64,000 nucleotides of DNA from Escherichia phage P896: the sequence record OL451225.1, one strand, 5' to 3'. Both the position numbers and the translations under genes were made by a program. A model generated the notes under the pieces. That model made no database searches and was not told the origin of the DNA. It was given only the letters and a program-made list of their open reading frames with translations. Each line of letters opens with the position of its first letter. Within the stretch, counting starts at the first letter, position 1. Of the stretch, positions 24,579 through 47,061 are shown piece by piece.

Positions 24579-24785
24579 TCACTTGCGACGACGTTTTGGT
24601 AATGGTTTAGGGAAGAACATTGCTTTACCTGCAGGGGTCAAAGTCACACGCAAAGCATTACCAATACCAAGGGATGCTTTAACCAGACCTTTGGCTTTTA
24701 ACTCACCAAATGCTTGACGTTGTTCAGGGTCACGAGTGTTAACCATCAGACCTTTTTCACCAGCAGCTTTGATTAATTCTAACAT
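24579..24785 (-). CDS. hypothetical basic protein, 68 aa
   Basis: ORF track; ATG with GGAGAATAAA RBS; C-terminal KRRRK tail. Confidence 0.45.
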   Translation of the reverse strand: MLELIKAAGEKGLMVNTRDPEQRQAFGELKAKGLVKASLGIGNALRVTLTPAGKAMFFPKPLPKRRRK

Positions 24786-24860: not shown

Positions 24861-24892
24861 TTTTAAAATAAAAAAGGACCCCGAAGGGTCCT
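24861..24892 (-). terminator. intrinsic terminator GGACCC-UUCG-GGGUCC plus UUUUUUAUUUU
   Basis: Perfect 6-bp stem with UUCG loop and T-run on the minus strand, immediately after the stop of gene 24899..25909. Confidence 0.7.
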
Positions 24893-24898
24893 TAGAAT

Positions 24899-25909
24899 TT
24901 AACGATAATAGGAATTATGGTTGTCAAGATATACCTCTTCAACAAACTTGTCCCAGAACTTCATGTCCACCTTCGCAGGCATACCGTTCTTAGCAGCCTG
25001 AATGGCCAGGACTTCAACTTCATCGACGGTATTTTCCAACAGGCCTTGGACTACTTTAAAAGGCATATCACCAGCTTTTATTGCTTTAATAACAGAAGCA
25101 TTTTTAAGCGGATAAACCAAATCGCCGGTTTGATAGATTTCCTTCAACTGGTATCCAGCACGATAAGCATGGCTCAGAGCTTTCCAGTCAATACCTTCAT
25201 TGGCTTCTGCCTTACGAGCACGTTCACCATATTCGGCATCGAGCTTATTCAGAGATTGCTTGAGCTCGATTAAAGACAGGGTGGTTTGGTACTTACGTCC
25301 AAGAACAGTATAGAACGTTTGAGGACCTGTTTTCTCGTGGTTATGGAATACCCATTCACAGAACTCATTTTCAGGGAGTCTGTGTTTGATATCTTCTACC
25401 TTAGTGCGACGTTGCTTAGTCGAACCGTCTTCTTGATAATCGACCCACTGTTCAGGAATCTGGTTAACGATTGTCAGTACACCACGCAGTGCAGCCAATC
25501 GAGAACCTTTAACACCATATTTGGAAGCTTGCTTACGGACATACCCCAAATAGGCTTTCATGTTAGTTGTATAGAACCGCGAACGGTTATCCTGAATAAA
25601 CTTCCATACATCTGGTAAATCGGATTTGACAACCAGGTCAGCCGGTGTGTGAATCATGTCCAGGGCAACGGTTTCGCCATCGGCTGCCAGTTTAAAGAAA
25701 TATTTCAGACTATAAAGTTCATGGTCAACATCATCTTTTGTATTTTTGGTAGCCGTGTTATTCGTGTTCAGGTTTGTATGGTTCATCGCGGTTCCGAGCA
25801 GGATATCTCGCGGATGAGGAACGAAGATTTCTTTAAAATCAACATCAGATTCCGGAGTACTTGTTCCATAAAGGTGGGAGCCAAAATATCCCTTCATAAC
25901 AGTTCTCAT
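24899..25909 (-). CDS. Pol-beta-superfamily nucleotidyltransferase, 336 aa
   Basis: N-terminal GS-x10-DVD (YFGSHLYGTSTPESDVDF), the minimal nucleotidyltransferase motif; ATG with GAGGA RBS. Confidence 0.6.
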   Translation of the reverse strand: MRTVMKGYFGSHLYGTSTPESDVDFKEIFVPHPRDILLGTAMNHTNLNTNNTATKNTKDDVDHELYSLKYFFKLAADGETVALDMIHTPADLVVKSDLPDVWKFIQDNRSRFYTTNMKAYLGYVRKQASKYGVKGSRLAALRGVLTIVNQIPEQWVDYQEDGSTKQRRTKVEDIKHRLPENEFCEWVFHNHEKTGPQTFYTVLGRKYQTTLSLIELKQSLNKLDAEYGERARKAEANEGIDWKALSHAYRAGYQLKEIYQTGDLVYPLKNASVIKAIKAGDMPFKVVQGLLENTVDEVEVLAIQAAKNGMPAKVDMKFWDKFVEEVYLDNHNSYYR

Positions 25910-26358
25910 TTTTTGTCCTCGAAGTGGATTACCGGACAGACCTTAGATTTACGAGCTTTAATGTACTGGATAACAATGTTTTCTTTAATTTCCTTTCCTT
26001 CACGTTTAGCTTTAATTAGTTGCCATTCCTTTTCTTCTTTACGTAAATCATACCAGGCCCATAAACTCATTATACAATACACAATACCAACGGCTACCGC
26101 TAGAATAAGGGCCAGTGTAACCAGTCCTAAAATAAAACCTAAACTTAAACCAACAGGAGTACTCAATACAAAGAAATGCTCTAATACACCAGCACCTGCA
26201 ACAGTTAAGCCGAAAATAGTACTACCTGCAAGCACAGAACACATAAAGCACGCCCAAACCATTTTCCAGAAGTATGCGCATAATGAGCGCGGACGCGAAT
26301 AACTGGCATAAAAACGGTCGTGTAGTTTAACGTGCCAAGAGTTTGTATTGATAATCAT
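25906..26358 (-). CDS. membrane protein, 150 aa, coupled to the nucleotidyltransferase gene
   Basis: Two to three hydrophobic helices then a charged C-terminal tail; stop overlaps the nucleotidyltransferase start by 4 nt; AAGGAAAA RBS. Confidence 0.55.
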   Translation of the reverse strand: MIINTNSWHVKLHDRFYASYSRPRSLCAYFWKMVWACFMCSVLAGSTIFGLTVAGAGVLEHFFVLSTPVGLSLGFILGLVTLALILAVAVGIVYCIMSLWAWYDLRKEEKEWQLIKAKREGKEIKENIVIQYIKARKSKVCPVIHFEDKK

Positions 26359-26368
26359 AATATTTTCC

Positions 26369-26929
26369 TTAAGAGTTCATAGTTGGGATAACAGAGTTCA
26401 GATAAGAGACTAAAACTTTTAGCTCGTCTTTAGTAAATACAACTTCACTTTCACCGTCATGTCTTTGGACAATGGACAACAAGTCACGGCCGTTATGTTG
26501 ATGCACAGTCAGTTCAGTATTATAATCTAATTCCTCTTCATCGCCTTCAAACGTTTCGCTAGAGCGAATCAGTGCGTCTTGACCAGGGACTTTCCATTCA
26601 ACTTCTGGCTTGCATTCTTCCTGGAACAGTTTGAAAATACAATCAAAGAATTTATCAGAATCGCTGATGCTCAGACATTCAATACCATTTTCTAAATTAA
26701 ACCCGTTTTCGTTTTTATAGATATAGGCATACATATCATCATTGATATCAACAGGAGCACTAGCACGACCATTAAGATAATCGTGTCTATCCAAAACCAT
26801 TAAATCATAAAGCGGTTTAATATCAGCGATAGTCAGTACGATTTTATCGTCTTCTTGACAAAGCTCAATTGCGTTATTAACTACTTCAGCGGTCAGTTCG
26901 CCAAACAATTCAGTTGTTTCAATAATCAT
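26369..26929 (-). CDS. hypothetical acidic protein, 186 aa
   Basis: ORF track; ATG start. Confidence 0.55.
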   Translation of the reverse strand: MIIETTELFGELTAEVVNNAIELCQEDDKIVLTIADIKPLYDLMVLDRHDYLNGRASAPVDINDDMYAYIYKNENGFNLENGIECLSISDSDKFFDCIFKLFQEECKPEVEWKVPGQDALIRSSETFEGDEEELDYNTELTVHQHNGRDLLSIVQRHDGESEVVFTKDELKVLVSYLNSVIPTMNS

Positions 26930-28140: not shown

Positions 28141-28195
28141 TCAGTAGTTGATGGGATAATAGTACACCCTTTTTATGGTGATGTAAACCCCTAAA
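28141..28195 (-). promoter_or_regulatory. early promoter cassette (-35 GTTTACA, 17-bp spacer, -10 TACTAT, leader ATTATCCCATCAACTACTGAGGAGA)
   Basis: Read on the minus strand upstream of gene 27927..28130. Confidence 0.55.
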
Positions 28196-28202
28196 TGAAA
28201 AA

Positions 28203-28228
28203 AGGTCCACCCGAAGGCAGACCTTTTG
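28203..28228 (-). terminator. hairpin with UUCG loop followed by UUUUUUCAUUU
   Basis: Imperfect 8-bp stem (two G-U pairs) plus T-run directly after the stop of gene 28231..28614. Confidence 0.5.
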
Positions 28229-46908: not shown

Positions 46909-46985
46909 TGGTCGGGGTGGTGGGATTCTAACCCACAACCTACGGTTTAGAAGACCGTTGCTCTATACAATTAAGCTACACCCCG
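46909..46985 (-). tRNA. tRNA-Arg (anticodon UCU), CCA encoded
   Basis: Minus strand folds as a cloverleaf: acceptor CGGGGUG/CACCCCG, anticodon loop CUUCUAA, T-loop GGUUAGAAUCC, 3' ACCA. Confidence 0.75.
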
Positions 46986-47061
46986 GGTGGCCCCATCCGG
47001 ACTTGAACCGGAAACCTGCCAGTTATGAGCCGGATGCTCTAACCAATTGAGCTACAGGGCC
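46986..47061 (-). tRNA. tRNA with CAU anticodon (Ile2-type or Met), directly abutting tRNA-Arg
   Basis: GGCCCUGUAGCUCAAUUGGUUAGAGC D-arm, anticodon loop CUCAUAA, T-arm UCCGGUUCAAGUCCGGA; acceptor has two G-U pairs and the anticodon stem one mismatch. Confidence 0.6.

What the first reader, a model, noticed from the sequence alone, without database searches (positions are those of the whole stretch)
24899..26358. Translationally coupled nucleotidyltransferase plus membrane-protein gene pair in a hyperplastic early region
The 336-aa protein carries the minimal Pol-beta nucleotidyltransferase motif G-S-x10-D-V-D at its N-terminus (YFGSHLYGTSTPESDVDF). Its start overlaps the stop of a 150-aa protein with two to three transmembrane helices. 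The pair has its own promoter-proximal position and a strong UUCG terminator (24861..24892), so it is a discrete two-gene unit. A nucleotidyltransferase paired with a membrane protein is the layout of minimal nucleotide-signalling and abortive-infection modules, and also of nucleotide-modifying anti-defence enzymes. Nothing at this position in T4 is recalled to look like this.
Basis: partly seen in the sequence, partly recalled or inferred. Interest (0 to 1): 0.7.

Follow-up and report, generated by a model that had tools for sequence, protein, structure and literature searches.

The report
T4 NrdC.11 nucleotidyltransferase plus neighbouring membrane gene
The 336-aa protein is the orthologue of phage T4 NrdC.11, an RlaP-family enzyme predicted to add nucleotides to broken RNA ends, and the membrane gene in front of it is a frequent but dispensable neighbour, so this is an annotated T4-type gene pair and not a new signalling or suicide module.

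Summary
Both ORFs, the G-S-x10-D-x-D motif, the ATGA stop/start overlap and the UUCG terminator are real. The interpretation mostly fails.

- **The enzyme is known.** The 336-aa protein passes Pfam's cut-off for PF10127 (RlaP). It is 82% identical to T4/RB3 NrdC.11 and 100% identical to a phage P896 protein. So T4 does have this gene, at this position.
- **Likely function.** Two Pseudomonas RlaPs add one or two NMPs to RNA 3'-OH ends and prefer nicked tRNA. The literature predicts that phage RlaPs restore nucleotides trimmed by RloC-type anticodon nucleases before ligation. This is untested for NrdC.11.
- **The 150-aa partner.** It belongs to a widespread, uncharacterised phage family (phrog_944) modelled as a two-helix membrane hairpin.
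- **The pairing is loose.** Of 44 NTase loci, 38 carry the membrane gene upstream: 13 abut the NTase gene and 25 lie 0.5–1.8 kb away. T4/RB3 carry the homing endonuclease gene mobD in its place. Ten membrane-seeded loci from other phages, plus one bacterial contig, have no RlaP nearby.
- **Not a discrete unit.** Stop/start overlaps of 1 or 4 nt occur in 26% of neighbouring gene pairs here, and no private promoter is visible.
- **One lead.** In Pakpunavirus the membrane gene sits inside an RNA-repair cassette.

There is no CD-NTase, CBASS or defence-system signal. Interest is low.

The parts
24874..24893 (-). Intrinsic-terminator-like hairpin (8-bp G+C-rich stem, UUCG loop) followed by a T run. 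It closes the transcription unit just after the NTase gene.
   Evidence: Terminator scan. RNA fold -14.2 kcal/mol, z = -2.55 against shuffles.
24899..25909 (-). 336-aa nucleotidyltransferase, the orthologue of T4 NrdC.11 and a member of the RlaP family (PF10127). Conserved residues include G10 S11, D22 x D24, D60, D62, D84, and C-terminal Y123 Q127 Y131 R230 D241 K243 H247 R250.
   Evidence: Pfam RlaP, E 2e-11, 44.5 bits against a cut-off of 23. phrog_388, E 9e-130. 82% identity to RB3/T4 nrdC.11. 100% identity to a phage P896 protein. Conservation across 146 divergent cluster representatives.
25906..25920 (-). Junction between the two genes: GAGGA Shine-Dalgarno (25920-25916), a 6-nt spacer, and the ATGA start/stop overlap (25909-25906). 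The same junction is where mobD is inserted in a close relative.
   Evidence: Sequence. Junction alignment with L004, which carries mobD here.
25906..26358 (-). 150-aa inner-membrane protein of family phrog_944. It has an N-terminal 'NSWH' and 'LCxYFW' motif, a two-helix transmembrane hairpin, a charged linker and a C-terminal 'KARKxKxCPxIxF' motif. Function is uncharacterised.
   Evidence: phrog_944, E 1.3e-54. No Pfam, NCBIfam or PADLOC family above threshold. Invariant C27, Y29, C141 and at least 90% conserved S7 W8 H9 L26 W31 A135 K139 P142 in 66 sequences. AlphaFold model, pLDDT 76.
26369..26929 (-). Context: MobD.1/y05I homologue, the upstream cistron. It ends 10 nt before the membrane gene.
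   Evidence: Pfam T4_y05I_N, E 6e-37, and T4_y05I_C, E 2e-19. The VR20 annotation reads 'similar to T4 MobD.1'.
28159..28227 (-). Context: upstream terminator-like hairpin (28200-28227, also with a UUCG loop) followed by a sigma-70-like TTTACA-17-TACTAT (28187-28159). This is the likely start of the unit that ends at 24874.
   Evidence: Consensus scans only. The number of promoter matches in the region is not above chance.

Best explanation
The two ORFs are neighbouring genes in the nrdC-tk variable region of a T4-like phage of the Gaprivervirus/Dhakavirus type, close to phage P896.

The 336-aa gene is the orthologue of T4 nrdC.11, a Pol-beta-fold nucleotidyltransferase of the RlaP family (PF10127). 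By homology with the two characterised Pseudomonas RlaPs, it binds NTP-Mg2+ through the G-S...D-x-D...D residues and adds one or two NMPs to the 3'-OH of broken RNA.

Its most likely role is in the phage's tRNA repair pathway. It would put back nucleotides that host anticodon nucleases of the RloC type excise after cutting. The phage polynucleotide kinase and RNA ligase 1, encoded elsewhere in the genome, could then reseal a functional tRNA. That would make it a counter-defence enzyme.

The 150-aa gene encodes a two-helix membrane hairpin with both conserved termini on the cytoplasmic side. Its family is widespread in large lytic phages and its function is unknown.

The juxtaposition and ATGA overlap reflect compact phage gene packing in one lineage, not an obligate two-component system.

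Shown here: orthology, family membership, an intact catalytic motif, and variable linkage. Inferred: enzymatic activity, RNA substrate, biological role, membrane topology.
For: Family and orthology:
- Pfam RlaP above its gathering score; phrog_388 nucleotidyltransferase, E 9e-130.
- 82% identity to RB3/T4 nrdC.11 at the syntenic site. The closest annotated genome, VR20, already labels it 'nucleotidyltransferase, similar to T4 NrdC.11'.
- 3087 cluster representatives match at E <= 1e-3. G10, S11, D22, D24, D60, D62 and D84 are 94-100% conserved among 146 of them.

Literature:
- bioRxiv 10.64898/2025.12.29.696909 shows that PfRlaP and PaRlaP add 1-2 NMPs to RNA 3'-OH ends and prefer the nicked-tRNA mimic. 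It places T4 NrdC.11 in PF10127 cluster 5, function unknown.
- PMC7824862 predicts that phage RlaPs restore nucleotides removed by RloC before ligation.
- The relative VR20 encodes rnlA elsewhere in its genome.

Against an obligate pair:
- 38 of 44 IMG/VR NTase loci have the membrane gene upstream, but only 13 abut the NTase gene. The other 25 are separated by 533-1836 nt of other genes.
- T4 and RB3 have mobD in its place. L004 has mobD (80% identical to RB3 MobD) inserted exactly between the two genes.
- VH7D and L036-L040 have the NTase without the membrane gene.
- ICP1, Va1, CC2, Pakpunavirus and several metagenomic phages have the membrane gene without an RlaP.
- 30 of 115 same-strand neighbour pairs in the window overlap by 1 or 4 nt.
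Against: - No experiment exists on NrdC.11 itself. It sits in a different PF10127 sequence cluster from the characterised enzymes.
- The Pfam match covers only residues 8-134.
- The AlphaFold model of the N-terminal domain failed (pLDDT below 50 for residues 1-65). The catalytic fold therefore rests on sequence motifs, not on structure.
- No RNA ligase or kinase gene is adjacent in this window; rnlA lies elsewhere in the relative's genome.
- T4 lacking nrdC.11 through mobD.3 is viable in the laboratory (PMC9825161). That fits an accessory counter-defence role but does not prove one.
- The neighbourhood of the membrane gene and the NTase survives rearrangement in Acinetobacter phages. A functional link is therefore not excluded.
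Confidence: 0.6

Rival explanations
1. Functional partnership. The membrane protein is a dedicated partner of phage RNA-repair enzymes. It would tether or regulate the RlaP enzyme, and in other phages the ligase and kinase, at the inner membrane.
For: - The membrane gene lies within 3 kb upstream of the NTase in 38 of 44 Straboviridae loci.
- The linkage survives a change of gene order. In Acj133 and L053 the order is NTase, then one or two small genes, then the membrane gene, with a second paralogue upstream. In Acj61 two tandem paralogues and a small gene precede the NTase.
- In the unrelated Pakpunavirus MAG1 the family member gp150 lies between a Metallophos_2 phosphoesterase and an Rnl1-type RNA ligase (PF09511) plus an AAA_33 P-loop kinase. 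That is a heal-and-seal RNA-repair cassette.
- Start/stop overlap with the NTase gene occurs in three lineages, at 91-97%, 82% and 68% NTase identity to the window protein.
Against: - T4 and RB3 keep an NTase that is 82% identical to the window protein without the membrane gene.
- mobD splits the pair in L004.
- Ten membrane-seeded loci (ICP1, Va1, CC2, MAG1, CoeS_P1, L054, L055/56, L057, L058) and one bacterial contig show no RlaP within 3.5-5 kb, and only MAG1 shows RNA-repair genes.
- Synteny within Straboviridae is largely inherited, so it counts as about one event.
- Between the window and Tequatrovirus the membrane protein is about 30% identical while the NTase is 82% identical, so there is no sign of tight co-evolution.
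Confidence: 0.15
2. One reading: a minimal nucleotide-signalling or abortive-infection module, CBASS-like, in which the NTase makes a nucleotide signal that activates the membrane protein as a pore-forming effector.
For: Only the layout: an NTase gene next to a small transmembrane-protein gene, with translational coupling.
Against: - No PADLOC hit for either protein.
- No CD-NTase or SMODS family hit. The matching family is RlaP, whose characterised members extend RNA by 1-2 nt.
- The gene order is effector-like gene first.
- Many lytic phages carry one gene without the other.
- The membrane protein has no recognisable nucleotide-sensing domain such as SAVED or STING.
Confidence: 0.02
3. The NTase nucleotidylylates a non-RNA target. 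It might AMPylate and neutralise a host defence protein, as MntA does to HEPN toxins, or act like the predicted NTase anti-Gabija protein Gad2.
For: - The motif region gives weak hits to MntA (NCBIfam, E 0.041) and NTP_transf_2 (E 0.066).
- One metagenomic phage (L054) has a Gad2-family gene two genes upstream of a membrane-family member.
Against: - Those hits are far below family cut-offs and cover only the universal G-S...D-x-D motif.
- Profile comparison of NrdC.11 with the Gad2-family protein found no relationship.
- The only family passed at threshold is RlaP, for which RNA was the only E. coli macromolecule labelled (abstract).
Confidence: 0.12

Closest known systems
Phage T4 NrdC.11 (NP_049709; 'uncharacterized 38.9 kDa protein in nrdC-mobD intergenic region')
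   Same: It has the same length (336 aa) and 82% identity. It sits at the same genomic position, downstream of mobD.1 and upstream of nrdC.9/10, on the same strand, and is followed by the same kind of genes.
   Different: In T4 and RB3 the gene immediately upstream is the HNH homing endonuclease mobD, whose end overlaps the nrdC.11 start. Here it is the 150-aa membrane gene. This window also lacks nrdC.10 and has a 68-aa ORF (phrog_6001) in that place.
RlaP (PF10127) nucleotidyltransferases PfRlaP and PaRlaP of Pseudomonas (bioRxiv 10.64898/2025.12.29.696909)
   Same: It belongs to the same Pfam family above threshold. It has the same G-S / D-x-D / Asp catalytic signature, an N-terminal NTase domain followed by a helical C-terminal part, and a predicted role in RNA repair.
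   Different: It falls in a different sequence cluster, 5 against 1a. It is not encoded next to RtcB, RtcA or any RNA ligase. The Pfam model matches only residues 8-134. The AlphaFold model shows a confident beta-rich insert at about residues 154-208. Activity is untested.
T4 Pnk / Rnl1 tRNA heal-and-seal pathway against PrrC
   Same: It belongs to the same biological conflict, phage repair of host-cleaved tRNA. The proposed step would fit between end healing and ligation.
   Different: The NTase step is a prediction only. Its genes are unlinked from pseT and rnlA; rnlA lies elsewhere in the VR20 genome.
CBASS CD-NTase plus transmembrane effector operons
   Same: Only a superficial layout: a Pol-beta-superfamily NTase gene next to a small transmembrane-protein gene.
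   Different: There is no CD-NTase family or PADLOC match. The element is a lytic phage, not a host defence island. The pairing is dispensable in both directions.
phrog_944 phage membrane proteins (for example RB32ORF096c, VR7ORF102c, Pakpunavirus MAG1 gp150, ICP1 ORF169)
   Same: The 150-aa protein is a full-length member with the family's conserved termini.
   Different: No member has a known function. Whether the gene abuts the NTase gene depends on the lineage.

Membership tests
RlaP / PF10127 | Match to the Pfam model above its gathering score | tested here: met
   44.5 bits against a cut-off of 23, E 2e-11, residues 8-134 on model positions 25-142 of 249. PF10127 is also precomputed for all 120 listed homologues.
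RlaP / PF10127 | Pol-beta catalytic signature: G-S, D-x-D and a third conserved acidic residue | tested here: met
   G10 100%, S11 99%, D22 100%, D24 100%, D60 97%, D62 94%, D84 96% in 146 divergent representatives. Which of D60, D62 or D84 is the third ligand was not resolved.
RlaP / PF10127 | N-terminal NTase domain plus C-terminal helical domain forming a cleft (PfRlaP crystal structure) | tested here: inconclusive
RlaP / PF10127 | Gene neighbourhood with an RNA ligase (the origin of the family name) | tested here: not met
   No ligase lies within the unit. rnlA lies elsewhere in the genome of the relative VR20. Association with a ligase is frequent in the family but not required for membership.
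RlaP / PF10127 | Adds 1-2 NMPs to RNA 3'-OH ends | not testable with these tools
   Shown only for PfRlaP and PaRlaP.
T4 NrdC.11 orthologous group | High full-length identity and conserved position between the mobD.1 side and the nrdC.9/10 side | tested here: met
   82% identity over 336 aa to RB3 and T4-type phages. MobD.1/y05I lies upstream and an NrdC.9 homologue (DUF7203) downstream.
CBASS / CD-NTase signalling module | CD-NTase-family enzyme recognised by defence-system profiles | tested here: not met
   No PADLOC hit at E <= 1. No CD-NTase or SMODS family among the Pfam hits at E <= 1.
CBASS / CD-NTase signalling module | Obligate co-occurrence of the NTase with its effector | tested here: not met
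   The NTase occurs without the membrane gene in T4, RB3, VH7D, L009 and L036-40. The membrane gene occurs without the NTase in ten membrane-seeded loci.
MNT-HEPN type VII toxin-antitoxin (MntA) | Match to the MntA / NTP_transf_2 models above cut-off, and an adjacent HEPN toxin gene | tested here: not met
   MntA 13.8 bits against a cut-off of 60. NTP_transf_2 14 bits against 21. Both matches cover only the motif at residues 8-26. No HEPN gene is adjacent.
phrog_944 membrane protein family | Full-length profile match plus the conserved N-terminal S-W-H / L-C-x-Y and C-terminal K-x-C-P motifs flanking a hydrophobic hairpin | tested here: met
   E 1.3e-54. Conserved columns. Model with helices 26-62 and 68-119.
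Holins | Match to a holin family, and a place in a lysis cassette | tested here: not met
   Phage_holin_3_6 E 0.31, 11.6 bits against 28.4. The gene lies in an early-type region with no endolysin or spanin gene adjacent.

The most novel reading that the evidence does not exclude
The phrog_944 membrane hairpin protein is a dedicated accessory of phage RNA-repair machinery. It accompanies the RlaP NTase across Straboviridae, even after gene-order changes. In Pakpunavirus it sits inside a phosphoesterase / Rnl1 ligase / P-loop kinase cassette. Its conserved cytoplasmic Cys/His termini could dock or regulate these enzymes at the inner membrane. That would point to a membrane-localised step of tRNA repair in the conflict with host or colicin-type ribotoxins.
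Probability: 0.12. Interest if true: 0.55.

Novelty: already known. Interest (0 to 1): 0.22.

Why it matters
The finding does not reveal a new system. The enzyme is T4 NrdC.11, already assigned to the RlaP family and already proposed in the literature as a repair enzyme that counters nucleotide-trimming anticodon nucleases.

What remains open is experimental. No phage RlaP has been tested, and T4 offers a direct way to ask whether this step completes the classical Pnk/Rnl1 counter-defence.

A smaller lead is the uncharacterised membrane family. It recurs next to RNA-repair genes in two unrelated phage groups.

The exercise also shows that an NTase gene next to a transmembrane-protein gene with an ATGA overlap is not diagnostic in T4-like genomes, where a quarter of neighbouring genes overlap in the same way.

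Tried and rejected
- **PDB sequence searches.** The protein alone and a 27-sequence profile found no homologue.
- **PADLOC and NCBIfam.** Nothing useful.
- **Locus search with the diverse membrane alignment.** It failed because no stretch was conserved enough.
- **Word-indexed search with the window membrane protein.** It found only close relatives. A second search with distant members was needed.
- **Unknown neighbours tested as hidden RlaP relatives.** The 323-aa protein next to a membrane-family member in L057 and the Gad2-family protein in L054 showed no similarity. ICP1 ORF165 is unrelated to the Gad2-like protein.
- **Promoter searches upstream of the pair.** Late and MotA-type middle-promoter patterns were not found.
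- **Rejected Pfam hit.** The 'Oleosin' hit of the membrane protein (22 bits, below the cut-off of 25) is hydrophobic-hairpin similarity only.
Full report
**1. The observation**

The window holds a 336-aa ORF at 24899..25909 and a 150-aa ORF at 25906..26358, both on the minus strand. The start of the first overlaps the stop of the second as ATGA. A GAGGA Shine-Dalgarno sequence lies six bases upstream of that ATG.

The 336-aa protein begins MRTVMKGYFGSHLYGTSTPESDVDF.

A hairpin GGACCC-UUCG-GGGUCC followed by a T run lies at 24874-24893 (-). The terminator scan finds it. It folds at -14.2 kcal/mol, z = -2.55 against shuffles.

One part of the observation does not hold up: that the pair has its own promoter.
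- The upstream gene (26369..26929) ends 10 nt before the membrane gene's ATG.
- No late or MotA-type middle-promoter pattern occurs in 26359-26929.
- The count of sigma-70-like matches in the region, 19, is about what shuffles give, 16.6.
- The next terminator-like site upstream on this strand is at 28200-28227, followed by TTTACA-17-TACTAT at 28187-28159.

The pair therefore looks like the last two cistrons of a unit of about eight genes.

The overlap is also not special. In a crude gene set for this window, 30 of 115 same-strand neighbour pairs overlap by exactly 1 or 4 nt, and 48 overlap in some way.

**2. The 336-aa protein**

It matches Pfam PF10127 (RlaP, 'RNA repair pathway DNA polymerase beta family') at 44.5 bits, against a gathering score of 23. 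It matches PHROG 388 'nucleotidyltransferase' at E 9e-130.

tblastn finds it in 1513 phage records. It is 82% identical over its full length to the Tequatrovirus gene annotated nrdC.11.
- In RB3 and T4 that gene lies between mobD and nrdC.10.
- In the closest annotated relative, Gaprivervirus VR20, the two genes are already labelled 'nucleotidyltransferase, similar to T4 NrdC.11' and 'membrane protein'. MobD.1 lies upstream and NrdC.9 downstream.
- The protein is 100% identical to a protein of Escherichia phage P896.

An exhaustive HMMER search found 3087 cluster representatives at E <= 1e-3 and 791 at E <= 1e-30. In an alignment of 146 of them, listed at 35-54% identity to the query, the following are 94-100% conserved: G10, S11, D22, D24, D60, D62 and D84. 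A set of C-terminal residues is at least 90% conserved as well, among them Y123, Q127, Y131, R230, D241, K243, H247 and R250. The enzyme looks catalytically competent.

**3. What the family does**

A 2025 preprint (10.64898/2025.12.29.696909) characterised two Pseudomonas RlaPs encoded between rtcB and rtcA.
- RNA was the only E. coli macromolecule labelled (abstract).
- The enzymes add one or two NMPs to RNA 3'-OH ends.
- They prefer the 5' half of a nicked-tRNA mimic.
- The crystal structure shows an N-terminal NTase domain and a C-terminal helical domain around a cleft.

The same paper places 'T4NrdC.11' in cluster 5 of the PF10127 similarity network and calls its function unknown.

Iyer et al. 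(PMC7824862) state that RlaP is the most prevalent such NTase in jumbo phages. They report that its distribution mirrors that of RNA ligases. They predict that it restores nucleotides removed by nucleases such as RloC before ligation.

VR20 encodes rnlA elsewhere in its genome, far from nrdC.11. T4 tolerates loss of nrdC.11 through mobD.3 in the laboratory (PMC9825161).

My best explanation follows. The protein is an accessory RNA 3'-end nucleotidyltransferase that serves the phage's tRNA repair pathway. The activity and role are inferred from homology, not shown.

**4. Structure attempts**

Only close homologues were permitted as alignment input. The AlphaFold model has mean pLDDT 68, and residues 1-65 are unmodelled. 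The rest is confident: helices plus a beta-rich insert at about residues 154-208.

**5. The 150-aa protein**

It matches PHROG 944 'membrane protein' at E 1.3e-54. It has no Pfam, NCBIfam or PADLOC family above threshold.

An alignment of 66 diverse members shows invariant C27, Y29 and C141. At least 90% conserved are S7, W8, H9, L26, W31, A135, K139 and P142. The conserved parts are therefore the two termini, and the hydrophobic middle is free to vary.

The AlphaFold model (pLDDT 76) has two long helices, 26-62 and 68-119. It also has short helices at 8-17 and 128-140, and terminal strands at 2-4 and 145-147. I read this as a two-helix membrane hairpin whose N- and C-terminal segments lie together. 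Given the lysine- and arginine-rich linker, they probably sit on the cytoplasmic side. This topology is an inference.

Structural neighbours among viral models are all uncharacterised phage proteins.

**6. Is the pair a module?**

Among 44 IMG/VR loci found with the NTase, a profile search finds the membrane gene upstream on the same strand in 38.
- In 13 its stop abuts or overlaps the NTase start. These loci fall in three identity groups, at 91-97%, 82% and 68% NTase identity to the window protein.
- In 25, other genes spanning 533-1836 nt lie between the two.
- In 6 it is absent.

T4 and RB3 carry the homing endonuclease gene mobD in its place. In L004, whose NTase is 92% identical to the window protein, a mobD 80% identical to that of RB3 is inserted exactly at the junction, between an intact membrane gene and the NTase gene. 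The Schizotequatrovirus VH7D has the NTase without the membrane gene.

The converse also holds. The membrane family occurs with no RlaP within 3.5-5 kb in these places:
- Pakpunavirus
- Vibrio phages Va1, ICP1 and CoeS_P1
- Aeromonas phage CC2
- several metagenomic phages
- one bacterial contig

Between the window and Tequatrovirus the NTase is 82% identical and the membrane protein about 30%. Neither gene needs the other to persist.

**7. What still argues for a link**

In the Acinetobacter phages the order differs but proximity is kept.
- In Acj133 and L053 the NTase gene is followed by one or two small genes and then a membrane-family gene. A second membrane paralogue lies upstream.
- In Acj61 two tandem paralogues and a small gene precede the NTase gene.

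In the unrelated Pakpunavirus MAG1 the family member gp150 has the same terminal motifs. It lies between a Metallophos_2 phosphoesterase and an Rnl1-type RNA ligase (PF09511) followed by an AAA_33 P-loop kinase. That is the composition of a heal-and-seal RNA-repair cassette.

This amounts to two roughly independent associations with RNA-repair enzymes, set against many contexts without one. I give a functional partnership about 0.15.

**8. Rejected readings**

A CBASS-like signalling or abortive-infection module is not supported. There is no CD-NTase or defence-profile match. The matched family acts on RNA ends. The pairing is dispensable in both directions.

An MNT-type protein-AMPylating antitoxin, or a Gad2-like role, rests only on sub-threshold motif hits and one neighbouring Gad2-family gene in a metagenomic phage.

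**9. Verdict**

The feature is real but ordinary. It is the T4 nrdC.11 orthologue, already annotated and already assigned to the RlaP family, together with a common uncharacterised membrane gene. In this lineage that gene happens to abut the NTase gene, at a site that mobD occupies in T4.

Novelty: already known. Interest: low, about 0.2. The residual value lies in the untested phage RlaP function and in the weak recurrent association of phrog_944 with RNA-repair genes.

Noticed in passing
window 25906-25920; L004:2185-3050; L001:3238-4017: The junction between the membrane gene and the NTase gene is the insertion point of the homing endonuclease gene mobD. L004 has mobD (80% identical to RB3 MobD) exactly between the two genes, with both intact. 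T4 and RB3 have mobD but have lost the membrane gene. The window is an 'empty site'. A 2010 review lists the MobD target as unknown, so this junction is a candidate homing site.
   Followed up: partly
L046:1944-5764 (Pseudomonas phage MAG1, Pakpunavirus): An apparent RNA-repair cassette. It runs: annotated HD-type phosphohydrolase, Metallophos_2 phosphoesterase, a 78-aa ORF, an HTH protein, a phrog_944 membrane protein, an Rnl1-type RNA ligase (PF09511), and an AAA_33 P-loop kinase. An ATP-dependent DNA ligase gene lies upstream, and prs and a nicotinamide phosphoribosyltransferase gene lie downstream.
   Followed up: partly
GenBank phage records listed: Many NrdC.11 orthologues, including the 100% identical P896 protein, are annotated as 'thioredoxin'. 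One is annotated as 'HNH homing endonuclease' and one as 'ArsR family regulator'. The 'thioredoxin' label probably spread from the locus name nrdC.11. These are misannotations of an RlaP nucleotidyltransferase.
   Followed up: no
L050:3223-3504 and L051:5359-5640 (Acinetobacter phages 133 and Acj61): A conserved protein of about 93 aa with a hydrophobic C-terminal tail lies directly downstream of the NTase gene in both phages. In Acj133 it overlaps the NTase stop. These phages also carry two paralogues of the phrog_944 membrane protein.
   Followed up: no
window 24899-25909, protein residues about 154-208: The AlphaFold model places a confident beta-rich insert (pLDDT 80-90) between the helical segments. 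It coincides with the least conserved stretch of the family alignment and lies outside the Pfam RlaP match. It may be a lineage-specific RNA-binding element.
   Followed up: no
window 24579-24785: A 68-aa ORF (phrog_6001, unknown function) lies downstream of the NTase gene, where T4 has the 325-aa nrdC.10. This lineage lacks nrdC.10 at this position. A promoter-like TGTACA-17-CATAAT (24855-24827) follows the terminator.
   Followed up: no
window 28200-28227: A second terminator-like hairpin with a UUCG tetraloop and a 12-bp stem lies on the minus strand about 3.3 kb upstream. UUCG-loop terminators seem to punctuate this early region.
   Followed up: no
window 46909-47061: Two adjacent tRNA genes on the minus strand: tRNA-Arg (TCT) and tRNA-Met (CAT).
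   Followed up: no
L054:3395-5465; L062:480-4435: In a metagenomic phage a 472-aa protein with a precomputed Pfam Gad2 hit lies two genes upstream of a phrog_944 member. Gad2 is an anti-Gabija protein predicted to be a nucleotidyltransferase. Vibrio phage vB_CoeS_P1 has a 56% identical homologue about 2 kb upstream of its phrog_944 member. No similarity to NrdC.11 was detectable.
   Followed up: partly
window 25649-26302 (+): A 217-aa GTG-initiated ORF runs antisense across the junction of the two genes. It has no support as a gene and is most likely an artefact of the coding strand's composition.
   Followed up: no
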